The notes under the pieces were generated by a model, which did not search any database, was not told the origin of the DNA, and worked only from the letters and a program-made list of their open reading frames with translations. Positions 3,735 to 60,921 of a DNA stretch of 64,000 nt are shown here, piece by piece. The DNA is taken from positions 394,460 to 458,459 of the forward strand of contig JAUYID010000009.1 of the NCBI GenBank assembly GCA_030704665.1. The letters run 5' to 3'. Position 1 is the stretch's first letter. Each line of letters starts with the position of its first letter. A program made the translations under genes and the position numbers. The stretch is from a bacterium. Its GTDB lineage: Bacteria; Patescibacteriota; Microgenomatia; Woykebacterales; RBG-16-39-9b.

Positions 3735-3778
3735 GAGAAAAAAAGCCGCGGAGGCCTAAAGGGCAGGTTTGCTTTAGG
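3735..3778 (-). terminator. putative intrinsic terminator of the LPXTG-protein gene
   Basis: On the minus strand an 8-bp stem (CCTAAAG...CTTTAGG) spans the stop codon and is followed after about 10 nt by TTTTTTTCTC. Confidence 0.4.
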
Positions 3779-4562
3779 CGAGGAAACGAGTTCGCAGTTT
3801 TCCTTCAGAGCTTCTTAACAAAAGTCCTGCTGCAAGGGTCAGTAAGACTGGAAGTACGGGAAGGCTGCTACCAGTCACAGGTAGACCACCGACATTTTCT
3901 CCGAGGACTGTCCCGGGTGTTTTAGGAGTTCCCGGCTCTTCTGGATTAGTTCCTGGTGTTGGAGTAGGTCCGACGTTGTTGTTATTGCCAGTATTTCCGA
4001 TCCCGATAGTGAAATTGATATCACCAGTGCTGATCGTTGCTTCCCCAGTATTTTTATCAGCTTCGTTGTTACCAGTGTTCAGATCAACCTGGGCTTGGTT
4101 GTTTATGTTCATCACGTTACTCTGATTGAGAGTCAAGGAGTTGTTTATATCAACCCTTGAAGTGTTGGTTGAGTTAGCACCGGTCTGGGTATTGGCGGAT
4201 GATGACGCTTCTGAGCTTCCACAACACGTTGGTGGGTTGATGTTGCTGCTGTTGAGTGTGTTATTTACAGTCAGAGAACCGTTGATGTCTCCGGTAGTGA
4301 TCGAGGCATCCCCAGTGTTTTTGCTAGCTTGGTTGCCTCCAGTGTTGGCGCTGATTTTGATTGTATTAACTACATTTGCTTCATTGTTTGAAGAAATAGT
4401 AACTTGGTTTGATGTTTCAACAGAGGCGGTATTTTCAGAATCAGCTCCAGTAGTGTCGTTGGTAGCGCTGTCAGCCAAAGCTAACGGTGCGGTCAGCAAC
4501 AGGGCTGCGATCGTGGAGCCGATAAGGGAGCTTTTTACAACTAGATTTTTCGTATGTACCAC
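3774..4562 (-). CDS. secreted cell-surface repeat protein with C-terminal LPXTG sortase anchor
   Basis: Signal peptide (LLLTAPLALADSA), then N/T/G/S-rich repeats of the form ANTGGNQASKNTGDASITTGD. The C-terminus is LPVTG plus a hydrophobic stretch plus RSSEGKLRTRF, a classical cell-wall sorting signal. Confidence 0.75.
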   Translation of the reverse strand: MVHTKNLVVKSSLIGSTIAALLLTAPLALADSATNDTTGADSENTASVETSNQVTISSNNEANVVNTIKISANTGGNQASKNTGDASITTGDINGSLTVNNTLNSSNINPPTCCGSSEASSSANTQTGANSTNTSRVDINNSLTLNQSNVMNINNQAQVDLNTGNNEADKNTGEATISTGDINFTIGIGNTGNNNNVGPTPTPGTNPEEPGTPKTPGTVLGENVGGLPVTGSSLPVLPVLLTLAAGLLLRSSEGKLRTRFLA

Positions 4563-6769
4563 CTCCCTCTGACCAATTTCAGAATTGTTTGGGCAGAGGC
4601 GGCAGTAATAATCAAGATAAAGATAAGGTTGCGCAGTGAGAGTCCACCCGAGGCTTGGTTGACGACCTGAGTAATATTTGGTGTTCCAAAGTTGTCCGAA
4701 ACACCCATGACTAAGGATTTTTTGTCTTGGCTTTCGGCACTGGCGCTCTGCTCGCCCGTGCTGCCGGGGTTGGAACCTGTATTGGAAGATCCTGTTGTGG
4801 TGTTACTACCCAGGATAGAGTTGATCACTTTATTGCTTGGGTTGTTTTTTCCGTGATCTAAGCCAGTAGAGCCAATGTTTTCTGCTGGCTTGCCGTCAGG
4901 AAAGATATCCCCATTGAAGCTTCCAAAAATATTCACAATACTTACGATCATACGAGAACCTAGAAAAGTGTTGTTCAGTATATTGAGGACGTTGGCAGCG
5001 ACGTTGACGTCTCCGGTCTTGATCGAAGCATTGCCGGTGTTCTTGCTAGCTTGGTTGCCTCCAGTGTTGGCGTTGATCTGAATATTGTTGTCAACAGTAC
5101 CTGAGTTGTTGACTTGAACAGTATTTGTGTTGTTGGCGCTAGAGTCAGCACTGTTGCTGCTGTCAGCTCCTGTTTGGTTGTTGACTGCCATCAGAGAGCC
5201 GTCAGGACCAACTACAAAGCTAAAGAAAGGAGAAGCTACTCCATCCTCATTCAGACTCATCAACTGACCAGTCCAGTTACCTAAATTGTTTACCAAAACG
5301 AGCCAGAGAGTACCGTCACTTCCAGCGGTGGTAGTGTTGGCGATGGTTGCTGTTTTAAGGTTGGCGTTGACATCCCCAGTTTGAATACTGGAGGTCCCAG
5401 TGTTTTTGTCAGCTGTATTATCACCAGTGTTGGCGTTGAGATTTATTCCGTTCAAGACGTTGGCGGTGTTGTTTACTCCAAGAGTTGAGCTGTTGTTAGT
5501 TGAGCTATCGGCAAAGTTGGCTGAATCGGAACCAGTAGTTAAGTTGGCGGCATTGAGGCTTTCCGGTGAAAAGATTGTCGAAGTTTCTCCGACTGGGGGT
5601 GGATTGAAGACAATATCTCCATTTAAGTTTCCGAAAACGTTGACTACCCCAAGCAAGAGTTCACCGGCTCCACCCAGAAAAGTGTTGTTCAAAAAGTTGA
5701 TCACGTTGACGGCAACATTGGCATCTCCCGTAGTAATCGTCCCGTCACCGGTGTTTTTACTGGCTGAGTTGTCACCGGTGTTGGCATCTAGAGTCGTAGA
5801 GTTGACCAGATTGCCGTTGTTGTCGATAAAGTAAGTGTTTGAAGTGTTGGAAGTTGCGGAAGCAGTGTTGCTACTCTCAGCTCCGGTGGTGTCGTTGCTA
5901 CTGGCTTGGCCAGTTCCAGCGGCAGTTTGGAGAACTTGAAGATCATCGAAATTCAAGATTAAGTCTCCGCTTTGATCATCCATGACATTGAAAACTTGAG
6001 CTCCCACGTTAACATTGTTACCAACGTTGATGGCGGTGAGAGTCAGGTCAGCATCCCCAGTAACAACCGAGCCGTCGCCAGTATTTTTGTCGGCAGTATT
6101 GTCACCAGAATTGGCTGTCAAAGTGGTCAGATTTTGTACATCGAGGTCGTTGTCAATATAAACATCAGTTGTGCTGTTGCTTTCTGAAGAAGCGTCGTTT
6201 TCCGAACCTGCTCCAGTGTTGGAATTGCTTGCCTCACCACTGACAGCGAGACAAGTTGAGATCGCACAAATGCTTGGATCCATTGCTCCAATTGAAACTT
6301 TGTTTGCATCTGAGCTTAGGTTGGCGACCAAACCTGCATCTCCGCTGACAACCGAGCCGTCGCCAGTGTTTTTATCTGAGCTGCTCTCACCGGTGTTCGC
6401 TTCCCCACTTGTAACGTTGAGGAGACTAGCGGTGTTGTCGACGTTGACCGAAGTATCAGAGTTAGTTGTGGTACTAGCGCTATTGGTTGAATCTGCTCCG
6501 GTGTTGGAATTGGTAGCGGCCGCGGCGGCCGCGGCTGCCTCGGCGGCGGCAGCTTCGGCTTCAGCCTTGCGGGCAGCTCTTTCGGCGGTCCATTTTTCGT
6601 ACCAGTTGTTTGGGTCATTCCAATCGATTTGGCTGCTGTCAGTTGTCGTAGTCGTAGTAGTGCCCGTCTCTCCTTCTGCTAGTACTGGGGCAACCAAACC
6701 AAAGCTTGAATAAGCTACCAAGAGTAAGCTGAGTAAAAGGCTAATTGTTTTTTGACTAAATTTTTTCAT
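4541..6769 (-). CDS. large secreted repeat protein (742 aa), paralogous to the neighbouring genes
   Basis: Signal peptide (LLLSLLLVAYSSFGLVAPVLAEG), a poly-Thr and Ala-rich linker, then at least 6 copies of the NTGDNxAxKNTGDGSVxTGDA unit alternating with NVxNxLNNTFLG segments. A C-terminal hydrophobic segment is followed by a basic tail. Confidence 0.75.
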   Translation of the reverse strand: MKKFSQKTISLLLSLLLVAYSSFGLVAPVLAEGETGTTTTTTTDSSQIDWNDPNNWYEKWTAERAARKAEAEAAAAEAAAAAAAATNSNTGADSTNSASTTTNSDTSVNVDNTASLLNVTSGEANTGESSSDKNTGDGSVVSGDAGLVANLSSDANKVSIGAMDPSICAISTCLAVSGEASNSNTGAGSENDASSESNSTTDVYIDNDLDVQNLTTLTANSGDNTADKNTGDGSVVTGDADLTLTAINVGNNVNVGAQVFNVMDDQSGDLILNFDDLQVLQTAAGTGQASSNDTTGAESSNTASATSNTSNTYFIDNNGNLVNSTTLDANTGDNSASKNTGDGTITTGDANVAVNVINFLNNTFLGGAGELLLGVVNVFGNLNGDIVFNPPPVGETSTIFSPESLNAANLTTGSDSANFADSSTNNSSTLGVNNTANVLNGINLNANTGDNTADKNTGTSSIQTGDVNANLKTATIANTTTAGSDGTLWLVLVNNLGNWTGQLMSLNEDGVASPFFSFVVGPDGSLMAVNNQTGADSSNSADSSANNTNTVQVNNSGTVDNNIQINANTGGNQASKNTGNASIKTGDVNVAANVLNILNNTFLGSRMIVSIVNIFGSFNGDIFPDGKPAENIGSTGLDHGKNNPSNKVINSILGSNTTTGSSNTGSNPGSTGEQSASAESQDKKSLVMGVSDNFGTPNITQVVNQASGGLSLRNLIFILIITAASAQTILKLVRGRWYIRKI

Positions 6770-6906
6770 TTGTTTTTCTATTCTTTCCTGGGCGGTTAAA
6801 AACCCACTTTTCCTTTTGTAAAAAATGTACTTTTAACTACCCGACCTCTTCCCGGCTCCCTGTCTCTCCGGAAAACCCGGAGAGACAAAGGGATCGGTAA
6901 CAGACA

Positions 6907-8070
6907 TTAGTTGCTGCTGTTTACATTTACGTCTACATCGACGTTGTTGTTGCTGCCATCAGCCTCGTCTCCGTTAACGGAGTTTTCGTTGGCACTGCTG
7001 GAAACTTCAACATCAACATCAGCATCACCAGTGTGCTGGTCGTCAGCTGTGTTTTTGTTGGTTTCGTTGTCACCAGTGTTTGCACTGATTTTTCCGCTGT
7101 TCTTCACGTTGGCCTCGTTGTCTTGATCGATGTCAAGATCGTTGTCAGCAGAAGCTTCAGCTTTGTTTTTTGAATCCGCACCAGTTTTTTCATTGGCGGC
7201 TTCGAGTTCAACATCACAGCAAGCGTCGACGTTTGCTGAGTTGGAGTTGGCATTGTTTTCAATTCCAACCTCAACTTTAGCGTCACCAGTGTCGACAGAG
7301 CCTTCACCAGTGTTTTTGTTTGCTTCGTTGTCTCCGGTGTTGGCTTCAACGTCTACGTCATTGCAGAGGTTGGCGTCGTTATCTTGGTCGATATCGACAT
7401 CGGTTTCTACAGATGCGTCGGCGTAGTTTTCAGAATCAGCTCCAGTGGTGTCATTGGAAGCAGAAACACTTCCACCGTCACCCCCGCTGATGCTAACTGA
7501 ATTCTCGTTTACCATATTGGCGATGCTGACAACTACTTCAGCGTCTCCAGTGGTGACGTTACCTTCACCAGTGTTTTTGTTTGCTTCGTTGTCTCCGGTG
7601 TTTGAGCTGACACTTACGCTGTTGAAAACGTTGGCCTCGTTGTCTTGATCGACATCGATGTCGTTGTCAACTGAAGCTTCAGCAATGTTCTTGGAGTCGG
7701 CACCAGTTTTGGTGTTAGAAGCTGAGACATCACCAGTACAAGCTCCACAGTTGTCAAGACTGACAGTGTTGGAGTTGGCGGTGTTGCTCAAAGAAACTGT
7801 GACGGAAGCGTCACCAGTGGTGACGGAACCTTCGCCAGTGTTCTTGTTTGCTGTGTTTCCACCAGTGTTTGAAGAGACGCTAATGTTGTTTACAATATTA
7901 GCTTCATTCTTCTGATCGATATCTACATCGTTATTAGTGCTGACTTCCGCTTCATTGTAGGAACCGTAACCCGTAGTGTCGTTGCTAGCAGTTCCCGCCA
8001 AAGCTGGAGTCAAAGAGAAAGCAAGGGATGCTACCGCAGATGCTGCAGCAGCAATTACTTTTTTGTTCAT
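6907..8070 (-). CDS. secreted acidic repeat protein (387 aa), same repeat family
   Basis: Signal peptide (ASLAFSLTPALAGTAS) and four copies of SSNTGDNEANKNTGEGxVTTGDAxVxV. Asp/Asn rich, consistent with calcium binding. SD AAAGGGGGTG lies upstream of the ATG. Confidence 0.7.
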   Translation of the reverse strand: MNKKVIAAAASAVASLAFSLTPALAGTASNDTTGYGSYNEAEVSTNNDVDIDQKNEANIVNNISVSSNTGGNTANKNTGEGSVTTGDASVTVSLSNTANSNTVSLDNCGACTGDVSASNTKTGADSKNIAEASVDNDIDVDQDNEANVFNSVSVSSNTGDNEANKNTGEGNVTTGDAEVVVSIANMVNENSVSISGGDGGSVSASNDTTGADSENYADASVETDVDIDQDNDANLCNDVDVEANTGDNEANKNTGEGSVDTGDAKVEVGIENNANSNSANVDACCDVELEAANEKTGADSKNKAEASADNDLDIDQDNEANVKNSGKISANTGDNETNKNTADDQHTGDADVDVEVSSSANENSVNGDEADGSNNNVDVDVNVNSSN

Positions 8071-12268: not shown

Positions 12269-12323
12269 GAATTTAATTTTAACCTAATTACCCTACCGCA
12301 GCAACAAGAGCAAAATAAAAAGC

Positions 12324-12382
12324 TGTCATTCTGAAGCGAAGCTGAAGAATCTTGAGATCCTTCACTAGTCGTTCAGGATGAC
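12324..12382. repeat. ORF-less palindromic element (MITE-like derivative of the GIY-YIG element)
   Basis: TGTCATTCTGAAGCGAAGCTGAAGAATCTT followed by GAGATCCTTCACTAGTCGTTCAGGATGACG. The two arms are the left and right TIRs of the GIY-YIG elements fused without an ORF. It sits at the boundary of the GC-rich block. Confidence 0.7.
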
Positions 12383-21194: not shown

Positions 21195-21407
21195 ATGCGA
21201 CAAAAAATTATTAAAGTTGGCAATTCGGCTGCAGTTACCATCCCAAAAAATATTCTTGAGGAAAAAAATCTTAAGATTGGTGACTTAGCTGAGTTTGATA
21301 TTCAGTCGATTAGCAAAAAAACAAAAGTTACCCCAGAATTTGTTGAATGGGTTGATAAGTATATCGAAAACAACCGCCCAGCACTTGAAGAGCTAGCCAA
21401 CAAATAA
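21195..21407 (+). CDS. AbrB/MazE/SpoVT-fold antitoxin
   Basis: IIKVGNSAAVTIPKNIL is the swapped-hairpin AbrB-type DNA-binding motif. 70 aa; 6 nt upstream of the doc gene. Confidence 0.8.
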   Translation: MRQKIIKVGNSAAVTIPKNILEEKNLKIGDLAEFDIQSISKKTKVTPEFVEWVDKYIENNRPALEELANK

Positions 21408-21413
21408 AGCAAC

Positions 21414-21791
21414 ATGAAATATCCTTCTTTGGACGAAGTAGTTGCTTTGCATTTTCGTATTACTGAAAAGACAGGCGGTTCTCAAGGAGTTCGAGACTGG
21501 GGCCTTTTAGCCTCGGCTTTAGGTCGTCCCCAAGCGAGTTTTGCTGGTGAAGATCTCTACCCTTCTTTGGAACTTAAAGCAGCGGCTCTAATCCAGTCTT
21601 TATCCTCCAACCATCCTTTTGTTGATGGTAATAAACGAACAGCTTTAGCAACACTGGAATATTTTTTGTTTTTAAATAAAGGTGAATTAAGAGCAACACA
21701 AAGAGAAAGGGTCGACTTTACACTTTGGGTGGAGAACGAAAAACCAAGTCTCGAAGAAATTTCACTTTGGATCAAGAAACACTTTAAATAA
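21414..21791 (+). CDS. doc: Doc (death-on-curing) Fic-fold toxin
   Basis: HPFVDGNKRTALA is the Fic/Doc active-site motif. 125 aa. Confidence 0.85.
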   Translation: MKYPSLDEVVALHFRITEKTGGSQGVRDWGLLASALGRPQASFAGEDLYPSLELKAAALIQSLSSNHPFVDGNKRTALATLEYFLFLNKGELRATQRERVDFTLWVENEKPSLEEISLWIKKHFK

Positions 21792-21826: not shown

Positions 21827-22600
21827 TCAACTAGTCCAAGTGTAGTGACCGCTCGTACACGTAAAGCTTCTCTTCCCGTCTTTGTTTGTTTCGGAAAGCT
21901 CAGAGTTGCAGCTGGGACAGAGAGCTTTTCCGGAAGAAAAGATCGGCGAGATGACTCGGATCCCTGACCGCGGCGGAAGATCACTTTCTTCCCGCTGTCT
22001 TAGGGCTGATTGGGCCGGGCTTTTTGGTACGGACCGACGAGGTCGCGGTTCTGGCAGGCGCTCTCGAGGTGGTGTTGGAAGTGCGAGACTTTGCTCATAC
22101 TTGGGCCACGGCTTTTTTCGTACAACCGGTTTTTTGGTTGGGCGGCGCCAAATGTGGTAGCCGGTGTATCTTTTCAGTGGGCCGGTGACTTCGAGTTCTG
22201 TAATTTCAGGACGTGACTCGAAAAGAAGCTTGGCTACTGCACCTATTTGACGTAAGGCGCGTTCCCGAGGAATTAAGAACTCTTTGTTTAGGTCGGTTTC
22301 CAGGTCAGCCGAAAACAGTAGATCACGGAGTCGCACTTCTGAAAGAAGCGGTTTTCCGTACCAGTCTGCCTTTACTTTTCCCCCGCCGTTCTCGAATGTG
22401 AGGCGGTAGTCCCCTTCCCAACGAAAGGCTCCCTTTCCATTCAGAACAACTTTGGCGGTTCCGTCGCCTAGACGTTCAATACCAAAGAAAGTCATTCCCA
22501 GACTACCGTACATCTCGAAGTCGTGCCAGAACAACCACATCATAAAGGCAACAAAGCCAATTAGAGCGGCTGGAACGGTAAGACCAATCAGAACTTCCAT
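21827..22600 (-). CDS. membrane-anchored protein with C-terminal zinc ribbon
   Basis: Start moved to MEVLIGL (SD AAGGAGAG). The first 161 codons of the track ORF are R/S/P-rich antisense of the DUF336 gene and are rejected. One TM helix; C-terminal CPSCN...CTSGH. Confidence 0.45.
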   Translation of the reverse strand: MEVLIGLTVPAALIGFVAFMMWLFWHDFEMYGSLGMTFFGIERLGDGTAKVVLNGKGAFRWEGDYRLTFENGGGKVKADWYGKPLLSEVRLRDLLFSADLETDLNKEFLIPRERALRQIGAVAKLLFESRPEITELEVTGPLKRYTGYHIWRRPTKKPVVRKKPWPKYEQSLALPTPPRERLPEPRPRRSVPKSPAQSALRQREESDLPPRSGIRVISPIFSSGKALCPSCNSELSETNKDGKRSFTCTSGHYTWTS

Positions 22601-22745
22601 AACCCTCTCCTTGTTTAGTTTGGTTTGGATTGTAAGTTTCTTTTGGGTTGTTGTCAAAGTGAAAAATTTGAGAAAATTTGCCAATGAAAAAGGGAAGTCC
22701 TTTGCTGGGGCTTCCCTTGTTCGTGTTGTTCGCGCGGTTCGGATC

Positions 22746-23201
22746 TCAGGACTGGGCGAAGAGTCTGACACTGTTGGCCGCCTCGACGACGAGTTCGACG
22801 TCCTTCTTTGAATCGGGAACACCGGAGAAGGCAGCGACGCCGACGAAACTTTCGGGGCTGCAATCATCCAATGCGAAGAGAGCAACACCGCCTTCGAAGG
22901 TGGTCTCGATGTCCTTGCCGTGCCCGTTGCGGATCTTCTGTTCCAGCGGGCCGGTGTTGGCCTGCAGGAAGAGGGCGGTCCTAGCTTTCTTGTGCGCGGT
23001 TGCGTTGTGGCGCGGCTGCCAGTCTCCCATTGGAGTTTGAACGAGCACCTCGCCGGCCGGGTCGAGCACAATGAAGGCACCACGTCTGGGTTGCTTGCCG
23101 ATAAACTTCTCGCGAAAGTGTTCCCGTACGTAGGTTGCCATCTCCATCGCTGTCACGTCGCTGATCGAGCGTCTGATCCGAAGCTTGGACGGGTCAATCA
23201 T
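22746..23201 (-). CDS. GlcG/DUF336-family protein
   Basis: HKKARTALF...TFEGGVALFALDD...GVAAFSGVPDSKKDVELVVEAA match the conserved blocks of DUF336/GlcG. Confidence 0.6.
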   Translation of the reverse strand: MIDPSKLRIRRSISDVTAMEMATYVREHFREKFIGKQPRRGAFIVLDPAGEVLVQTPMGDWQPRHNATAHKKARTALFLQANTGPLEQKIRNGHGKDIETTFEGGVALFALDDCSPESFVGVAAFSGVPDSKKDVELVVEAANSVRLFAQS

Positions 23202-23339
23202 GTCTCTTCTCCCTCTGGAAAGCCAGATAGACTGGCGAACAAAACGTTATCGGAAATTATAGCAAAAATTGAGGCTAAAGTCAAATACTATAAGTCACTC
23301 GTAGCTGATATTTCCTACCGGAAATCAGCTACTGCGTGT

Positions 23340-23567
23340 CTTGCGTTCAAGCATAGTCTGACGACTATTTGCTTGATCTTGGGATTTTCAAAAGAAGTTG
23401 AGTTTTAAAGTCCCGCAACCACTGCGTGGTTGTAGGCTAATCTTTGAGGGCTCTATCAAGAAAAGCTTGCGTTCTACGAACTTGGGATTTTCGAAAGAGA
23501 ATAAGTTTTAAAGTCCCGCAACTGCTGCGCAGCTGTAGGCCTCTTTGAGGGCTAGATCAAGAAAAGC
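23340..23567. repeat. tandem direct repeat (about 126 bp then about 102 bp) with internal hairpin
   Basis: Both copies begin CTTGCGTTC...CTTGGGATTTTC...GTTTTAAAGTCCCGCAAC[hairpin]GTAGGC...TTTGAGGGCT..ATCAAGAAAAGC. The hairpin stems differ by compensatory changes (CCAC/GTGG versus CTGC/GCAG). Confidence 0.7.
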
Positions 23568-23618
23568 CAGGGATCCTAAAAATTGTTTTGATTGGAATAA
23601 AAACTGAGGTGTGAGGAG

Positions 23619-23648
23619 ACTCCCGTTGTTTGTTGCGCCAACGGGAGT
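23619..23648. repeat. conserved hairpin element, copy 1 (ACTCCCGTTG-N10-CAACGGGAGT)
   Basis: Perfect 10-bp inverted repeat 26 nt 3' of the TetR stop. Shares flanks GGAATAAAAA...GAGACTCCCG...GGGAGTCCCT with copy 3. Confidence 0.7.
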
Positions 23649-23673
23649 CCCTGGTCCTGTCTGGAAGAGCTCT

Positions 23674-24321
23674 TCAGTACTCTTTCAGGACAGCGCCTTG
23701 GGCAATCGAGAAGAGAGTCGCAGCGATCTCCCTGACGCTGGGTTCGGTTTCCCTGCGCAGGTGGTCAAAGGCCGCGAAGTTTGAGAGTTGGTTGAAAGTG
23801 CCAAAGCTGCAGAGCAGACAGAGCGTCCGAACCGCTTGGGCTTGGCTGACTCCCTTCTTCAGTTTTCCGGCAGAGAGGCGTTTCACCAAGTTTTCGATTT
23901 GGTGGCGCTGAAGGATCTCGAGCTCTTCTTGCGGCTGGAACTTCTCGCCCCGCAGAGTGAAGAAGCCTTCGAGACTGCGCATGATCTCGTAGTATCTGCA
24001 CCAGACTCTGACCCAAGTCTTCAGCACTTCTCGGAGTGCGACCACTGGGTCAGCGTGGAGAGAAGCTGTTTCAGTGCTATGAAGATCCCCTTCCTTGATT
24101 CGCCCGACTTCATCCTCGAAGATCGTGATGAGAAGAGCTTCCAAAGAGTGAAAGTGCTGGTAAACAGTGGGGCGGGTGAAACCGGCACTTTTGGCGATCG
24201 TCCGAATGTTGGCTGCGCAGAGACCCTCGTCTATGATCAGGGCTAGAGCAGAGTCAAGAATACGACGACGCGTCCGTGTAACAGTCTCGAGACGTTTGAC
24301 CGAGTGATACGGTCTTGGCAT
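23674..24321 (-). CDS. TetR/AcrR-family transcriptional regulator
   Basis: N-terminal HTH (RRRILDSALALIIDEGLCAANIRTIAKSAGFTRPTVYQHF) typical of TetR. Confidence 0.8.
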   Translation of the reverse strand: MPRPYHSVKRLETVTRTRRRILDSALALIIDEGLCAANIRTIAKSAGFTRPTVYQHFHSLEALLITIFEDEVGRIKEGDLHSTETASLHADPVVALREVLKTWVRVWCRYYEIMRSLEGFFTLRGEKFQPQEELEILQRHQIENLVKRLSAGKLKKGVSQAQAVRTLCLLCSFGTFNQLSNFAAFDHLRRETEPSVREIAATLFSIAQGAVLKEY

Positions 24322-24356
24322 TGCGGGTCCCTTTCTTTCCCTGGTAGTGGGTGGGA

Positions 24357-24386
24357 ACTCCCGTTGTTTGTTGCGCCAACGGGAGT
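24357..24386. repeat. conserved hairpin element, copy 2
   Basis: Identical 10-bp stems and loop to copy 1. Lies 22 nt 3' of the 24408 gene stop and 35 nt 5' of the TetR start. Confidence 0.7.
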
Positions 24387-24407
24387 CCCTGCTCTTTGTT
24401 TTTCCGC

Positions 24408-24926
24408 TTAGTCGACCAAACGCACTCCGTCAAGTGGTGGGGCGATGATCTGTCTGGCGCGAAATTCCAGGGTTACCGCTTCTTGCTCGACATTGTCAGC
24501 CTCGGAACGTTTCTTTCGTGCTTCTTCAGCCTTGACGGAGATTTGGGCGAGAAGAACGGTCCGCAGGGTCTGAAGTGTGAGAGAAACGTGAGCGTCCCAG
24601 TTGTAGGGTAGATTCTCAATCCCGCTTTCCATCCGGGCAATTCTTCCTTCTCTTCTTGAGAACAGGTACGAGAAGCTAGAATCGCTGGCGAAAGCGATCT
24701 TTAACCAGAACGACCCTCCCAGAAGTGTGAAGTAGAGCTGGTAGACTGTCGTTGCCTCAGCAGGAGGATACCGGTCCTCGTAGAAATTGATGCGGTGCAG
24801 CTCGTTGCTGAGACCAGAGAGATTGAAGATCTTGGTTCCAGCTTCCAGAGCACCTTTGTTAACGCTCGGATCAACTTCGCCTAGCGGCAAAGTGATACGA
24901 CAGCCCCTTGTCTCTTCCTGATCCAT
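24408..24926 (-). CDS. hypothetical protein
   Basis: 172 aa with no recognised motif. GC-rich codon usage like its neighbours. Confidence 0.4.
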   Translation of the reverse strand: MDQEETRGCRITLPLGEVDPSVNKGALEAGTKIFNLSGLSNELHRINFYEDRYPPAEATTVYQLYFTLLGGSFWLKIAFASDSSFSYLFSRREGRIARMESGIENLPYNWDAHVSLTLQTLRTVLLAQISVKAEEARKKRSEADNVEQEAVTLEFRARQIIAPPLDGVRLVD

Positions 24927-25059
24927 GACTCATCCCTTTCTTGCGGACTATCCGCAAAAACTTGTTCTGACACGACTATCGTGCAGATCAGAATGGATTT
25001 TACTAAAAATGGTTGGGTGATGCAACTATGGGTCTTGTGGAATAAAAATGTTGGTAGAG

Positions 25060-25086
25060 ACTCCCGTTTGTGGGCGAAACGGGAGT
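25060..25086. repeat. conserved hairpin element, copy 3 (ACTCCCGTTT-N7-AAACGGGAGT)
   Basis: 10-bp stem with a matching stem change (G to T and C to A) and a shorter loop. Lies 20 nt 3' of the 25106 gene stop. Confidence 0.65.
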
Positions 25087-25105
25087 CCCTTGATCTCTGC
25101 TTCTT

Positions 25106-25705
25106 CTAGCGGCGCCGTGTCAGCTCGCCCAGATCGATGACGTGGACTCCTCTCAGGTTGAGACCAGGTCGATGATCCTGTTGACAGGGGCGGATGTGAA
25201 GGTGGCAGTCCGGCGCGAAGCTTGGGTGTTCCTCGATCCACTTTCGGTGTGCTTCACGAACTGGCTCCATCAAGCCGGCGACGAACTCCTTCTCGAGGTG
25301 GTTCTGGGCCACATGCTGGAAGTGAGCGAAGACGTTGGTGTAGACGGTTTGGAAAGCCGGGGCTCCATCTTCCCTGGTCCAGGCTTCTTCCACCATTTCG
25401 CGTACCACGATTCGGTAGAGGGCCAAGATCTCCCGGGTCAGGGCTTCTCGATTCTCTGCCACCACGAAGTCACCTATCTCGGGGTCATTTTCGACCGCCT
25501 CCCTGACCGCGTCGATGTGATTTGTGACTCGGATGTCGCGGATAAGTCGTGCGGTGCTTTGCCCAGAGAGTGTGGGAAAAAGACCTCCCACCTCGGCCTC
25601 AACGGTGTCTGGGTTGTCCAAGAGGTAACCAAGACTGTAACCGGTTGTCACGATTGATCCTTCCTTTCGATCGCTAGGTTCCTTTTTGTGTTTAAATTTT
25701 AACAC
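25106..25705 (-). CDS. hypothetical protein
   Basis: 199 aa, largely helical. No confident family assignment. Confidence 0.4.
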   Translation of the reverse strand: MLKFKHKKEPSDRKEGSIVTTGYSLGYLLDNPDTVEAEVGGLFPTLSGQSTARLIRDIRVTNHIDAVREAVENDPEIGDFVVAENREALTREILALYRIVVREMVEEAWTREDGAPAFQTVYTNVFAHFQHVAQNHLEKEFVAGLMEPVREAHRKWIEEHPSFAPDCHLHIRPCQQDHRPGLNLRGVHVIDLGELTRRR

Positions 25706-30496: not shown

Positions 30497-30506
30497 AATC
30501 GTGTTA

Positions 30507-30839
30507 TGTCATCCTGAGCGATTAGCGAAGGATCTCGTCCCCCAAGTCTTTCCAAACCTGATTGTTGGTTTCTATTAAACTGATCTTTTTTGATCTCAGC
30601 CAACCTTTTATTCTCTTCTCGCTTTCAATAGCTTGACTTGAATTTTCAAATTCTTCAAAGAAAACAAGCTTATTCAGATTGTACTTTTTGCTAAACCCAT
30701 CGATCAGTTTATTTTTATTCTCAAAAAGTCTTCTTTTTAGATTGTTTGTAACACCTGTGTAGAGAACTCTGTTTAGCTTGTTGGTAATAATATAAACGTA
30801 ATAACTCATGAGATTCTTCAGCTCCGCCTCAGAATGACA
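30507..30839 (-). mobile_element. GIY-YIG element bounded by about 30-bp terminal inverted repeats
   Basis: Left arm TGTCATCCTGAGCGATTAGCGAAGGATCTC and right arm GAGATTCTTCAGCTCCGCCTCAGAATGACA are inverted repeats. The GIY-YIG ORF fills the space between them exactly: its ATG abuts the right arm and its last codons (EILR, stop) are encoded by the left arm. Confidence 0.7.
30522..30809 (-). CDS. GIY-YIG nuclease-family protein (95 aa)
   Basis: YYVYIITNKLNRVLYTGVTNNLKRRLFEH contains the GIY-YIG motifs and matches the COG2827/YhbQ-like small URI-domain proteins. Confidence 0.85.
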   Translation of the reverse strand: MSYYVYIITNKLNRVLYTGVTNNLKRRLFENKNKLIDGFSKKYNLNKLVFFEEFENSSQAIESEKRIKGWLRSKKISLIETNNQVWKDLGDEILR

Positions 30840-30841
30840 GG

Positions 30842-31264
30842 TTAGCCAATGTATTTGTTGAATTCGACGAAATCTTTTTTGTTGTAGTAGTAAGGAATTT
30901 GGGCGGTCAGTTTGTAGCCAAGGGACTGGTAAAATTTGACCGCCGACCAGTGTTTGCCAGTGACCAAATCAATGTTGTGGCAACCCTCTTCTTTGGCAAT
31001 TTTCTCAGCCTCTTCCATCAGAGCACGGCCGACACCCTTGCCTCTCTTGCCCTCAGCGACAATCACGACTTGAAGATCAGCTACCCCAGCCTCTATTTTC
31101 ATCTTTAGACTGCCAGCTATTTCTCCGTTCTCCTCTGCTTTCAAAACGACATACTTTTCTCTCCACTCAACATCTTGCCCGTATTTTTCCTGATCAACCT
31201 TCGCCCATTCGCGGAGATTGAACTCCTCAACTTCTTTTTCAGTTGTTGGAGTCACTTTTACCAT
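30842..31264 (-). CDS. GNAT-family N-acetyltransferase
   Basis: RGKGVGRALMEEAEKIAKEEGC is the acetyl-CoA binding motif A. Confidence 0.75.
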   Translation of the reverse strand: MVKVTPTTEKEVEEFNLREWAKVDQEKYGQDVEWREKYVVLKAEENGEIAGSLKMKIEAGVADLQVVIVAEGKRGKGVGRALMEEAEKIAKEEGCHNIDLVTGKHWSAVKFYQSLGYKLTAQIPYYYNKKDFVEFNKYIG

Positions 31265-31339
31265 AAAGCTCTACCTGGTCAGTGTAGCACGGAGTTTTGG
31301 CTAAGACAACTTAAATAAATTTCTTTTCAAAGATAAAAC

Positions 31340-31396
31340 TGTCATTCTGAAGCTAGCTTCGATTACGAAACTAAGCGAGCGGAGCTGAAGAATCTC
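31340..31396. repeat. solo left-arm copy of the TIR with internal palindrome GAAGCTAGCTTC
   Basis: TGTCATTCTGAAGC..GAGCGGAGCTGAAGAATCTC. Followed by the motif TTGCTTGTCCAA, which also occurs at about 45450 and 55625. Confidence 0.55.
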
Positions 31397-36202: not shown

Positions 36203-36254
36203 GTCATCCTCGCGTAGGTGAGGATCTAGATTCTCAGTCAAGCTGAGAATGACA
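36203..36254. repeat. palindromic element variant (two short hairpins, GTCATCC...GAATGACA ends)
   Basis: GTCATCCTCGCGTAGGTGAGGATCTAGATTCTCAGTCAAGCTGAGAATGACA. Same architecture as the copy at 55517. Confidence 0.55.
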
Positions 36255-42856: not shown

Positions 42857-43654
42857 TTAAGAATCTTGACTAGCTAGTTCAACTGCGCCAACGAGGGTCG
42901 AATCGGCACCAAGAGCAGGGATGGCGATCAGAGGCAGCGGGTAAATTGTCAGAAAATCGCGGATTTTTTCTACCAAAGGCTCGAAGAAAGCCTCTTTGTT
43001 GGTGGTCAGTCCCCCGCCAATTATTACAACCTCCGGTGAGAAGTGAACGATTGAATTGGTAATGCCGCGGGCGAGTCGTTCCAAGACTTTGTCCCAGTCG
43101 GGAGTACCAACGATTTCGGCTGGGTCTTTGCCGTAAAGCTCTTTTAGGCCTGTACCAGAAGAAAGTTTTTCCAAATTTTTGTTAACACCGGTGACGATTT
43201 GCTGACCACCTTCAGGATTGTAGACTCCTTTGTAGATTTGGCCGCCCGCGACTAGACCAGTACCAATTCCGGTACTGACGGTGTAATAAAGGACTGGATC
43301 CTTCTCTTTTCCAGATCCGTAAAGCGATTCCGCCAAAGCTGCCAAAGAAGCGTCATGCTCAACTTTGACTTCAAGATCAAGTTCTTGGGAAAGAATTTCG
43401 CGCAAAGGTTGGTCGCGCCAAGTTGGGAGGTTCGGCAGGGCGCGTAGCAAACCAGTTTTGGTTTCGATCGGTCCAGGAATGGCCACCCCGACTTGAGCTT
43501 TTTGGTCCCCCGCCACTTCTCGAACACGACTGACAATTTCTCGTAGAGTTTCTTTAAATTCGAGAGTGGGAAAATCAAACTTCTTGTCAACTTTTCCAAG
43601 ATTTCCAGTCGCTATACGAGTGTGAGTGCCACCGATGTCAATACCGATGTTCAT
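42857..43654 (-). CDS. ROK-family sugar kinase/regulator
   Basis: MNIGIDIGGTHTRIA N-terminal ATPase motif and ROK-type central region. The start codon abuts the TIR of the GIY-YIG element. Confidence 0.8.
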   Translation of the reverse strand: MNIGIDIGGTHTRIATGNLGKVDKKFDFPTLEFKETLREIVSRVREVAGDQKAQVGVAIPGPIETKTGLLRALPNLPTWRDQPLREILSQELDLEVKVEHDASLAALAESLYGSGKEKDPVLYYTVSTGIGTGLVAGGQIYKGVYNPEGGQQIVTGVNKNLEKLSSGTGLKELYGKDPAEIVGTPDWDKVLERLARGITNSIVHFSPEVVIIGGGLTTNKEAFFEPLVEKIRDFLTIYPLPLIAIPALGADSTLVGAVELASQDS

Positions 43655-43659
43655 AGTGC

Positions 43660-43992
43660 TGTCATCCTGAGTGACTAGCGAAGGATCTCTTCTGCTAAGT
43701 CATTCAAATTAGGGTTTTTAGCTTGAATTAAATTTATCTTTTTAATTCTTAGCCAGCCTTTAATCTTCTTTTCTGCTCTCAAAGCGTCCTCAACATTGTT
43801 AAATTCTTCAAAGAAGATCAGCTTAGTTAGATTGTACCTCTTTGTAAACCCCTCAATCAATTCGCCTTTATGCTCCAAAACTCTCCGCTCCAGGTTGTTT
43901 GTTACTCCTGTGTACAGGGAAGTATTAGTTTTGTTAGTTAAAATATAAACGTAATAACCCACTAGATTCTTCGCCTTTAGCTCAGAATGACA
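43660..43992 (-). mobile_element. second GIY-YIG element bounded by TIRs
   Basis: Left arm TGTCATCCTGAGTGACTAGCGAAGGATCTC, right arm TAGATTCTTCGCCTTTAGCTCAGAATGACA. The ORF spans from the right arm (GTG start) to the left arm (EEILR, stop). Confidence 0.7.
43675..43962 (-). CDS. GIY-YIG nuclease-family protein (95 aa), paralogue of 30522..30809
   Basis: GYYVYILTNKTNTSLYTGVTNNLERRVLEHK; about 65 percent identical to the first copy. GTG start. Confidence 0.85.
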   Translation of the reverse strand: MGYYVYILTNKTNTSLYTGVTNNLERRVLEHKGELIEGFTKRYNLTKLIFFEEFNNVEDALRAEKKIKGWLRIKKINLIQAKNPNLNDLAEEILR

Positions 43993-44013
43993 CCCCTTTT
44001 TTACCAGGGGAGT

Positions 44014-50319: not shown

Positions 50320-50428
50320 TGTCATTCTGAGCGCTTAGCGAAGAATCTAAAAGAGATCTTTCACGGAGCCTGCACTTGAGACTCTTCACTTCGTTCAGAG
50401 TGACAGAGTCGAAGTGTTCAGGATGACA
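50320..50428. repeat. nested composite of TIR-derived palindromes
   Basis: TGTCATTCTGAGCGCTTAGCGAAGAATCT, then GAGATCTTTCACGG..., then GAGACTCTTCACTTCGTTCAGAGTGACA, ending ...TTCAGGATGACA. Confidence 0.6.
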
Positions 50429-55516: not shown

Positions 55517-55604
55517 CTGTCACCCTCGAGAAATCGAGGATCTAGATTCTCAGTAGAGCGCTACACACTCTGCGCTTGATTACAATCTTCAAGCTGAGAA
55601 TGAC
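55517..55604. repeat. palindromic element variant with 40-nt internal insertion
   Basis: TGTCACCCTCGAGAAATCGAGGATCTAGATTCTCAG...CAAGCTGAGAATGACG. Same architecture as the copy at 36203. Confidence 0.55.
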
Positions 55605-57394: not shown

Positions 57395-57476
57395 TGTCAT
57401 CCTGAGTGTTAACGAAGGATCTCTGAGGTTCTAGCGGAATATGAACTTGAGACTCTTCGCCCTGCTAAAAGTGACA
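57395..57476. repeat. ORF-less TIR pair (left arm plus variant right arm GAGACTCTTCGCCCTGCTAAAAGTGACA)
   Basis: TGTCATCCTGAGTGTTAACGAAGGATCTC on the left. Confidence 0.6.
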
Positions 57477-57516
57477 AAGCTGGAGTTCAAAACGACAAGG
57501 CTAAAGAATCGGAAGG

Positions 57517-60841: not shown

Positions 60842-60861
60842 TCACATTCCGATAATAATTC

Positions 60862-60921
60862 TGTCATTCTGAGGCGAAGCCGAAGAATCTCTTGAGATCC
60901 TTCGTTGCACTCAGGATGACA
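60862..60921. repeat. archetypal ORF-less TIR pair (MITE-like)
   Basis: TGTCATTCTGAGGCGAAGCCGAAGAATCTC-tt-GAGATCCTTCGTTGCACTCAGGATGACA. This is the GIY-YIG element with its ORF precisely removed. Confidence 0.7.

What the first reader, a model, noticed from the sequence alone, without database searches (positions are those of the whole stretch)
23340..23567. Tandem 126-bp and 102-bp direct repeats with compensatory stem mutations between the TetR gene and the DUF336 gene
The two copies share more than 80 percent identity, differing by a 24-nt indel. Their internal hairpins GCAACCAC-TGC-GTGGTTG and GCAACTGC-TGC-GCAGCTG differ by paired substitutions (CAC to TGC and GTG to GCA) that preserve base-pairing. 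This is the hallmark of a conserved RNA structure and not a neutral duplication. They sit in the 470-bp gap upstream of the DUF336/GlcG gene on the minus strand. They may be a duplicated cis-regulatory RNA or a small RNA.
Basis: seen in the sequence. Interest (0 to 1): 0.6.

Follow-up and report, generated by a model that had tools for sequence, protein, structure and literature searches.

The report
Orphan tandem hairpin repeat upstream of promoter
Two diverged copies of a roughly 100-base non-coding segment really do sit side by side between a TetR regulator gene and a heme-binding-like gene in an uncultivated Patescibacteria genome, but the evidence that they encode a conserved RNA is thin and they look most like an ordinary, lineage-specific intergenic duplication.

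Summary
The repeat is real. Copy 1 is 23340-23466 and copy 2 is 23466-23567, about 82-83% identical (blastn E 2e-21), and copy 1 has an extra 23-nt piece that completes a 30-nt hairpin. The quoted hairpins and the two paired substitutions exist. The claim that this is a hallmark of conserved RNA is overstated. The two compensated pairs are adjacent and all changes are transitions. At least 2 such pairs arise in 4.5% of random-mutation simulations on a fixed structure, and in 22% when RNAalifold picks the structure. Wobble evidence points to opposite strands in different helices. The core units fold no better than shuffles. Substitutions do avoid or compensate stems modestly (p about 0.002-0.006). 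A near-consensus sigma-70 promoter (11/12, extended -10) lies between the repeats and the HbpS-like/DUF336 gene, so they are not its 5' leader. No promoter or terminator defines an sRNA, and Rfam gives nothing. No further copy was found in the window, relatives' loci, genome, metagenome, viral, plasmid or phage collections. Most likely this is an old tandem duplication of a hairpin-rich spacer in a GC-rich island. Interest is low.

The parts
23340..23466 (.). Repeat copy 1 (127 nt), proximal to the HbpS-like gene. It has hairpins H0, H1, H2 and H3.
23466..23567 (.). Repeat copy 2 (about 102 nt), proximal to TetR. It lacks the 23-nt piece of H0 and has a 4-bp GTTC-TAC-GAAC hairpin instead.
23347..23376 (.). 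H0: a 30-nt hairpin, TCAAGCATAGTC-TGAC-GACTATTTGCTTGA. It is present only in copy 1. The Logan contig L001 ends at its edge (23376).
23381..23414 (.). H1 of copy 1: GGGATTTT-N18-AAAGTCCC. The arms are invariant between the copies and the 18-nt spacer is variable. There is a U.G pair on the plus strand and a C.A mismatch on the minus strand.
23484..23517 (.). H1 of copy 2: same arms and same 18-nt spacing.
23416..23432 (.). H2 of copy 1: a perfect 7-bp palindrome, CAACCAC-TGC-GTGGTTG.
23519..23535 (.). H2 of copy 2: CAACTGC-TGC-GCAGCTG. It carries two adjacent double changes plus one A-U to G.U change (an A.C mismatch on the plus strand).
23435..23467 (.). H3 of copy 1: a weak interrupted hairpin (GGC..TCTTTGA..TCAAGA..GCT).
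23538..23568 (.). H3 of copy 2.
23368..23379 (.). Left arm of a 12-nt inverted repeat, TTTGCTTGATCT. It pairs 11/12 with 23554-23565 (AGATCAAGAAAA), so the two arms bracket the two-unit array.
   Evidence: I1
23554..23565 (.). Right arm of that inverted repeat.
   Evidence: I1
23256..23284 (-). Near-consensus sigma-70 promoter of the HbpS-like gene: TTGACT-17-TATAAT with TG (11/12). It lies between the repeats and the gene.
23301..23332 (.). A 32-nt palindrome, GTAGCTGAT-AT-TTCC-TACC-GGAA-ATCAGCTAC, 17 nt upstream of the -35. It is a candidate regulator (TetR?) site, by inference only.
23619..23651 (-). Terminator-like hairpin, GGGACTCCCGTTG-GCGCAACAAA-CAACGGGAGT, starting 22 nt after the TetR stop. 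An identical copy is at 24357-24389 and a related copy at 25060-25089.
23674..24321 (-). TetR-family regulator gene (215 aa).
22746..23201 (-). HbpS-like / DUF336 gene (151 aa).

Best explanation
The repeat is an old, lineage-specific tandem duplication of a hairpin-rich non-coding spacer. There are two units with a period of 101-103 bp, and one unit later gained or kept a 23-nt piece.

It lies inside a GC-rich, probably acquired five-gene island of a Patescibacteria genome. The likely origin is slipped-strand or unequal recombination, followed by about 17% divergence. The inverted repeats were kept self-complementary largely by how DNA hairpins mutate: one intra-hairpin template-switch event can change both arms at once. 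Any selection for hairpin shape was at most weak.

The repeat sits between the terminator-like hairpin that ends the TetR gene and the strong promoter of the HbpS-like gene. It is therefore not that gene's 5' leader and not a recognisable sRNA gene.

Shown here: the repeat, its anatomy, the promoter position and the absence of relatives. Inferred: the mode of origin, the template switch and the lack of a dedicated RNA function.
For: - There are only two copies anywhere. CM and HMM searches of the window find nothing else.
- Relatives' loci have none.
- The 17-mer scans of 185,579 genomes and of the JGI metagenomes give only chance hits.
- Viral, plasmid and phage searches are empty.
- The compensated pairs are two adjacent transitions-only pairs in one 7-bp stem. 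P(>=2) is 0.045 under random mutation with the observed transition bias. The RNAalifold count is uninformative, at 22%.
- Template switching yields multibase compensatory changes (PMC8794818).
- Wobble and mismatch evidence conflicts between the strands.
- Core units give z -0.13 to -1.95.
- There is no Rfam hit.
- The promoter TTGACT-17-TGnTATAAT at 23284-23256 lies downstream of the repeats. Equally good promoters sit directly before other minus-strand genes.
- There is no sigma-70 promoter or U-tract terminator within the units.
- The island has atypical GC content and orphan genes.
Against: - Substitutions avoid or compensate predicted stems more than random placement. Broken pairs are 1-2 against a mean of about 5, and the combined P is 0.002-0.006. 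This suggests some constraint on the hairpins.
- The H1 arms are invariant while the H1 spacer has diverged.
- A small, compact genome is expected to delete useless DNA, yet both copies survived about 17% divergence.
- No expression data were available, so transcription of the units cannot be excluded.
Confidence: 0.4

Rival explanations
1. The units form a hairpin array in the 3' region of the TetR-containing transcript, on the minus strand. On read-through RNA they fold into stem-loops that stop or insulate transcription, or block 3' exonucleases, ahead of the independently promoted HbpS-like gene. This would work like REP/ERIC-type intergenic hairpins.
For: - The units are on the same strand as both flanking genes and directly follow the TetR gene and its hairpin.
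- Canonical U-tract terminators are not enriched in this genome (23 found vs 26.3 in shuffles).
- Three consecutive island genes end in a reused hairpin without a U-tract.
- H2 of copy 2 is fully paired only on the minus strand.
- The whole spacer folds with z -4.5 on the minus strand.
- Stems are preserved.
Against: - H1 has a C.A mismatch on the minus strand in both copies, and the consensus fold is better on the plus strand (-21.7 vs -18.9 kcal/mol).
- No U-tract follows any unit hairpin.
- There is no transcript evidence.
- The core units are not significantly stable.
Confidence: 0.2
2. The units are DNA-level protein-binding modules. The 17-bp palindrome (H2) and/or the inverted half-sites GGGAYTTT-N18-AAARTCCC would be operators or upstream sites, for the adjacent TetR or another regulator, that act on the promoter 90-310 bp downstream.
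For: - The units lie upstream of the promoter and next to a TetR gene.
- H2 of copy 1 is a perfect 7-3-7 palindrome. By general knowledge, not tested here, that is the size of typical TetR-family operators.
- The H1 arms are invariant, with a fixed 18-bp but sequence-variable spacer. That is the pattern expected of spaced half-sites.
- The strand ambiguity of the 'structure' fits double-stranded DNA.
Against: - The two H2 palindromes differ at 2-3 positions per half-site in a symmetric way. One protein recognising both sites would not be expected to tolerate that.
- The position is far upstream for a repressor.
- A better-placed 32-nt palindrome (23301-23332) abuts the -35.
- The motif does not recur elsewhere in the window.
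Confidence: 0.15
3. Each unit is a structured RNA, either a tandem pair of paralogous small RNAs or a tandem cis-regulatory element. It would be a three-hairpin fold of about 90 nt under selection for base-pairing.
For: - Both copies share a three-hairpin consensus with no broken pair, two compensated pairs and two wobble-compatible single changes.
- Stem-sparing substitution gives P 0.002-0.006.
- The conserved motif GCCCUC sits in the H3 loop on the minus strand and could pair with a GAGGG ribosome-binding site. This is inference only.
Against: - There are only two sequences, and one 2-bp block carries all the covariation (P 0.045).
- The strand signals are contradictory.
- z-scores are not significant.
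- No promoter or terminator defines a unit.
- The near-consensus promoter of the downstream gene lies between the units and the gene.
- There is no Rfam match at E<=10.
- No homologue was found in any collection.
Confidence: 0.12
4. The repeat is a relic of a small mobile element (MITE-like or REP-like) that inserted and then partly duplicated.
For: - A 12-nt inverted repeat (11/12) brackets the array, and the same motif ends copy 1.
- Logan contig L001 stops at 23376, at the edge of the duplicated part. The 20-nt longest shared run cannot explain this. More copies elsewhere in the genome, or a population polymorphism, are possible explanations.
Against: - There are no other copies in 64 kb or in any collection.
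- No target-site duplication is present.
- No transposase, RAYT or integrase was found among 47 ORFs scanned.
- The GTAG/CTAC box is in the wrong orientation for REP.
Confidence: 0.06

Closest known systems
Intergenic minisatellite-type tandem repeats (for example the mycobacterial MIRU/VNTR loci; from general knowledge)
   Same: Head-to-tail repeats of about 50-130 bp that lie in a spacer between co-directional genes. They are non-coding and have a low copy number.
   Different: - MIRUs are a dispersed family with many loci per genome and strain-variable copy number. Here there is a single locus with two copies.
- Polymorphism could not be tested.
- There is no sequence similarity to MIRUs.
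Hairpin-bearing intergenic repeats REP/BIME, ERIC and BOX (general knowledge)
   Same: Imperfect palindromes in transcribed spacers after genes, which can act as RNA 3' stabilisers or terminators. The unit size is similar to ERIC (about 126 bp).
   Different: - Those families have tens to hundreds of dispersed copies and, for REP, a GTAG box 5' of the hairpin plus a RAYT gene. None of these was found here.
- There was no Rfam or sequence match.
Tandemly duplicated bacterial small RNAs (for example PrrF1/PrrF2 and OmrA/OmrB; general knowledge)
   Same: Two adjacent diverged copies of an element of about 100 nt, with shared hairpins.
   Different: Known pairs each have their own promoter and a Rho-independent terminator, and they are conserved across species. 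Here no promoter, terminator or orthologue was found.
Template-switch-maintained hairpins (Monttinen and Loytynoja 2022, PMC8794818)
   Same: A multibase 'compensatory' change confined to one stem. The adjacent positions changed together on both arms.
   Different: That study inferred events on phylogenies of rRNA genes. Here the ancestral state is unknown, so the event is only inferred.

Membership tests
Any Rfam 15 RNA family | Covariance-model match at or near the gathering score | tested here: not met
   No hit inside 23340-23567 even at E<=10. No gathering-level hit anywhere in the 64-kb window.
Riboswitch / 5'-UTR cis-regulatory RNA of the DUF336 gene | The element lies between the transcription start and the start codon of the regulated gene | tested here: not met
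   The best promoter (11/12, extended -10) is at 23284-23256, downstream of the repeats, and leaves a leader of about 48 nt. This is a prediction only. No TSS data were available.
Riboswitch / structured cis-regulatory RNA | Covariation supported across many homologues | tested here: inconclusive
   There are only 2 sequences. Two adjacent double changes give P 0.045. The shuffle control is uninformative (115/500).
Independent small RNA gene | Own promoter and intrinsic terminator delimiting the unit | tested here: not met
   There are no terminator-like sites in 23100-23750. The only promoter-like site within a unit is a 9/12 match (23391-23364) that is not conserved in copy 2.
REP/BIME (RAYT-associated) | Many dispersed copies, a GTAG box 5' of the palindrome, and a RAYT (Y1 transposase) gene | tested here: not met
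   There are 2 copies in 64 kb. The motif is CTAC-hairpin on the minus strand and hairpin-GTAG on the plus strand, which is the wrong orientation. No Y1_Tnp was found among the ORFs scanned. The rest of the genome could not be read.
MITE | Terminal inverted repeats | tested here: met
   A 12-nt inverted repeat matching 11/12: 23368-23379 with 23554-23565.
MITE | Target-site duplication and multiple dispersed copies | tested here: not met
   The flanks (..GACTA | GCCAGG..) share no duplication. No other copy was found in the window or the collections.
Integron attC / gene cassette | R'' RYYYAAC ... R' GTTRRRY at the two ends of a 57-141-nt imperfect palindrome, with IntI nearby | tested here: not met
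   No matching core sites occur at the unit ends. The 33-nt island hairpin has GTT..AAC in the inverted order and is too short. No integrase was found among the scanned ORFs.
Type III toxin-antitoxin antitoxin repeats (ToxI-like) | Tandem repeats transcribed from an upstream promoter, followed by a terminator and then an endoRNase toxin gene | tested here: not met
   The downstream gene is HbpS-like, not ToxN/AbiEii-like. The promoter lies between the repeats and the gene. Units are about 100 nt and number only 2.
MIRU/VNTR-like minisatellite | Head-to-tail intergenic repeats between co-directional genes | tested here: met
MIRU/VNTR-like minisatellite | Copy-number variation between strains, with the family present at several loci | not testable with these tools
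   Only one genome and one sample carry the locus. The Logan contig break at 23376 is compatible with this but not diagnostic.
TetR-family operator | Palindrome of about 15-30 bp overlapping or adjoining the regulated promoter and bound by the regulator | tested here: inconclusive
   H2 is a 17-bp palindrome but lies 130-280 bp upstream of the -35. A different 32-nt palindrome (23301-23332) adjoins the -35. Binding cannot be tested here.

The most novel reading that the evidence does not exclude
The units, together with the reused hairpin that closes three consecutive island genes, could belong to a so far undescribed hairpin-module system of a mobile Patescibacteria island. One form would be a tandem pair of a new three-hairpin regulatory RNA. 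Another would be hairpin-delimited gene modules that recombine or are processed at the hairpins.
Probability: 0.08. Interest if true: 0.55.

Novelty: new member of a known kind. Interest (0 to 1): 0.15.

Why it matters
If the units were a genuine structured RNA, they would be one of very few candidate regulatory RNAs specific to Patescibacteria, and they would be linked to a TetR/HbpS-like gene pair. As the evidence stands, the case is mainly a caution. Two paired substitutions between two paralogous copies are not a hallmark of RNA selection when transitions dominate and DNA hairpins can mutate both arms at once. The promoter position also matters for calling something a cis-regulatory leader.

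Tried and rejected
1. **Degenerate third or fourth copies in the flanks (23202-23339 and 23568-23673), including the idea that the units are decayed copies of the promoter.** Smith-Waterman with shuffles gave p 0.24-0.93 and p about 0.4-0.86 with permissive scoring. Rejected.

2. **Similarity of the spacer after the 199-aa gene to the 3' part of unit 1.** p was 0.015-0.03, uncorrected for several tests. Kept only as a weak lead.

3. **Small ORFs or peptide genes in the units.** There is no ATG ORF. TTG ORFs of 20-37 aa fall in different frames in the two copies. Rejected.

4. **tRNA or tmRNA.** None found.

5. **Rfam.** No hit.

6. **Homologues by exact 17-mer.** There were 26 genome and 31 metagenome hits, all with no extended similarity. 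A degenerate pattern might have reached further.

7. **Viral scans with three unit-derived patterns.** They returned 0 hits or chance hits.

8. **Plasmid and phage blastn.** No hits.

9. **Orthologous loci through the flanking proteins.**
   - DUF336 has only itself plus a 99-aa fragment, and the fragment's contig is not on record.
   - TetR has only itself plus a 36% homologue, whose 243-nt downstream region is unrelated.

10. **Relatives found through RarA (78-79% identical Woykebacteria-like contigs).** Their HbpS-like genes are 29% identical. They have a short promoter region and no unit.

11. **attC, REP, MITE and Type III TA readings.** See the membership tests.

12. **RNAalifold compensatory-pair count as evidence.** It occurs in 22% of random controls. 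Rejected as evidence.

Full report
**Observation**

The 472-bp gap between the TetR gene (24321..23674, minus) and the HbpS-like/DUF336 gene (23201..22746, minus) contains two adjacent copies of a non-coding unit.
- The repeat finder reports a 63-nt block at 83% (23375-23437 / 23478-23540) and a 26-nt block at 92% (23441-23466 / 23542-23567).
- The full-length alignment has 103 ungapped columns with 84 identities (81.6%) and 25 gap columns.
- blastn of copy 1 against the window with copy 1 masked finds only copy 2 (E 2e-21).
- In the 93-column core there are 15 substitutions, 11 of them transitions, and one 2-nt gap.
- The large indel is a 23-nt piece of copy 1 that completes a 30-nt hairpin, H0 (23347-23376). 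Copy 2 has only a 4-bp hairpin there.

Besides the two paired changes in the 7-bp stem, the 3' arm of copy 2 has a further T-to-C change. This gives A.C on the plus strand and G.U on the minus strand.

**Anatomy, read on the minus strand (the sense of both genes)**

1. The TetR stop codon.
2. After 22 nt, a strong hairpin GGGACTCCCGTTG-GCGCAACAAA-CAACGGGAGTC (23651-23619). It has no U-tract.
3. An A/T-rich stretch of 50 nt.
4. Unit 2.
5. Unit 1, including H0.
6. A 32-nt palindrome (23332-23301).
7. After 17 nt, TTGACT-17-TGnTATAAT (23284-23256; 11 of 12 matches).
8. A leader of about 48 nt with the ribosome-binding site GGGAGAAG, then the ATG at 23201.

Equally good promoters lie directly upstream of other minus-strand genes: 22657-22629, 18153-18125 and 17468-17440. 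This consensus is clearly used by the organism. On this prediction the repeats are upstream of the promoter (about -90 to -320), not in the leader of the DUF336 gene. No terminator-like site and no conserved promoter-like site delimits a unit.

**Structure**

Each unit has three shared hairpins on either strand.
- **H1** is GGGAUUUU-N18-AAAGUCCC. The arms are invariant and the spacer is variable. It has a U.G pair on the plus strand and a C.A mismatch on the minus strand.
- **H2** is the 7-bp stem that carries the paired changes.
- **H3** is a weak, interrupted stem.

The evidence on folding and strand is mixed.
- The consensus energy is -21.7 kcal/mol on the plus strand and -18.9 on the minus strand.
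- H2 of copy 2 pairs fully only on the minus strand, whereas H1 pairs fully only on the plus strand. The strand signals therefore contradict each other.
- The core units are not significantly more stable than dinucleotide shuffles: z is -1.95 and -0.13 on the minus strand, and -1.41 and -0.25 on the plus strand.
- The whole spacer is hairpin-rich (z -4.5 minus, -3.5 plus). Much of that stability likely comes from the TetR hairpin, H0 and the promoter-proximal palindrome, which persist in the centroid folds.

**Is the compensation more than chance?**

- RNAalifold applied to copy 1 plus a randomly mutated copy (15 substitutions, 11 transitions) reports at least 2 'compensated' pairs in 22% of trials. 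That count carries no weight.
- With the structure fixed as the MFE of copy 1 alone, at least 2 double changes occur in 4.5-4.9% of trials. Paired transitions always preserve pairing, which raises this figure.
- The number of broken pairs is 1-2, against a mean of about 5. The combined probability is 0.002 on the minus strand and 0.0055 on the plus strand.
- With two sequences, the shuffle control of the count of structure pairs is uninformative (115/500).

There is thus modest evidence that the stems are spared or repaired. It rests on n=2 and on one adjacent 2-bp block. Multibase compensatory changes of this kind can arise in a single replication template-switch within a DNA hairpin (PMC8794818). 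They do not by themselves show selection on an RNA.

**Relatives**

No further copy was found in any source searched.
- **Window:** pattern search, nhmmer at maximum sensitivity, and a covariance model with filters off found only the two units (118.7 and 112.2 bits). The next hit scored 15.2 bits, on the opposite strand of the same locus.
- **Genome and metagenome collections:** the invariant 17-mer gave 26 hits in the species-representative genomes and 31 in JGI metagenomes. All lacked extended similarity.
- **Viral, plasmid and phage collections:** nothing or chance hits.
- **Flanking proteins:** they are near-orphans. DUF336 matches itself plus a 99-aa fragment. TetR matches itself plus a 36% homologue with an unrelated downstream region.
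- **Organism:** it is a Patescibacteria MAG on a 938,369-bp contig. The RarA relatives that carry organism names include Candidatus Woykebacteria MAGs at 72-75% identity.

**Context**

- The five genes 21827-25705 (257 aa, HbpS-like, TetR, 172 aa, 199 aa) form a 55-63% GC island in 40-47% GC surroundings.
- Three consecutive island genes (199 aa, 172 aa, TetR) are each followed, 16-22 nt after the stop, by the same hairpin. The copies at 23619-23651 and 24357-24389 are identical over 33 nt. The copy at 25060-25089 has a different loop and a U-A to G-C change at the apical pair.
- The exact repeat explains why Logan contig L060 ends inside it.
- Logan contig L001 ends at 23376, at the edge of the duplicated core. 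The 20-nt longest shared run does not explain this.
- Canonical U-tract terminators are not enriched (23 found vs 26.3 expected).
- No transposase, RAYT or integrase was found among 47 ORFs scanned with Pfam.

**Explanations**

- **Old tandem duplication of a hairpin-rich spacer (0.40).** I consider this most likely. The self-complementarity would be maintained mainly by hairpin mutational mechanics, with weak constraint at most, and there would be no dedicated RNA function.
- **Minus-strand hairpin array (0.20).** It would terminate, insulate or stabilise read-through transcripts of the TetR operon.
- **DNA-level binding modules (0.15).** These would serve TetR or another regulator.
- **MITE/REP-like relic (0.06).**

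Arguments for and against each, and the results that would refute them, are given in the structured fields.

**Comparison with known systems**

The element works most like generic intergenic minisatellite or hairpin repeats (MIRU-, ERIC- or REP-like). It fails their membership criteria of dispersal, signature boxes and associated genes. It matches no Rfam family. It does not meet the architecture of riboswitches, sRNA genes, attC sites or Type III antitoxin repeats.

**Verdict**

The repeat is real, and the preservation of its stems is modestly non-random. The RNA interpretation is unproven, and the cis-regulatory version is disfavoured by the promoter position. The element is lineage-specific and of low general interest (0.15). 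The most novel reading not excluded is a new regulatory RNA or hairpin-module system of a Patescibacteria island, with a probability of about 0.08.

Noticed in passing
window 23619-23651, 24357-24389, 25060-25089 (minus strand): A terminator-like hairpin, GGGACTCCCGTT..AACGGGAGTC, follows three consecutive genes (TetR, 172 aa, 199 aa) 16-22 nt after each stop. Two copies are identical over 33 nt and bracket the TetR gene. The third has another loop and a compensated apical pair. Two of the three are followed by a C/A-rich tract and TTTTTATTCCA. It occurs nowhere else in the window or in viral contigs.
   Followed up: partly
window 30522-30809 (-) and 43675-43962 (-), with flanks 30497-30845 / 43650-44000: Two paralogous 95-aa GIY-YIG nuclease genes. 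Their DNA is 76-84% identical, flanks included. They are bordered by GTCATCCTGAGCGA.TAGCGAAGGATCTC and AGATTCTTC..CTCAGAATGACA motifs.
   Followed up: partly
window 12313-12337, 31329-31353, 60851-60875, 36203-36243, 55519-55559, 50364-50415, 57435-57486: Short dispersed motifs (CTGTCATTCTGA[AG]GC, GTCA[CT]CCTCG..GATCTAGATTCTCAG, ..GAGACTCTTC..AGTGACA). They look like the same family as the GIY-YIG gene borders. This may be a small dispersed repeat family of this genome.
   Followed up: no
window 21827-25705: A GC-rich island (55-63% GC) of five genes in 40-47% GC surroundings. The two genes searched (HbpS-like and TetR) have almost no homologues among 5.8 billion proteins, and the other three (257, 172 and 199 aa) have no Pfam domain. 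It lies next to a MazE/Fic toxin-antitoxin pair (21195-21791) and is probably horizontally acquired.
   Followed up: partly
window 23376 (end of Logan contig SRR13727534_352966 = L001): An independent assembly of the only sample carrying this organism breaks exactly between hairpin H0 and the duplicated core. The two copies share no run longer than 20 nt. The break is unexplained, and population heterogeneity or extra copies elsewhere are possible.
   Followed up: partly
window 23301-23332: A 32-nt palindrome, GTAGCTGAT-AT-TTCC-TACC-GGAA-ATCAGCTAC, 17 nt upstream of the -35 of the HbpS-like gene promoter. It is a better-placed candidate regulator site than the repeats.
   Followed up: no
window 3774-8070 (minus-strand ORFs 3774-4562, 4541-6769, 6907-8070): Large ORFs without Pfam domains that are built from internal repeats of 261-351 nt (7-9 copies, 60-86% identical). 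They are probably repetitive surface proteins.
   Followed up: no
loci L064 12282-12740 and L065 2429-2887, compared with L063: In related Woykebacteria-like contigs, a 152-aa HbpS-like gene sits after patatin and RarA in two samples. In a third sample it is absent from the same place. HbpS-like genes therefore seem to be variable accessory genes in this lineage.
   Followed up: no
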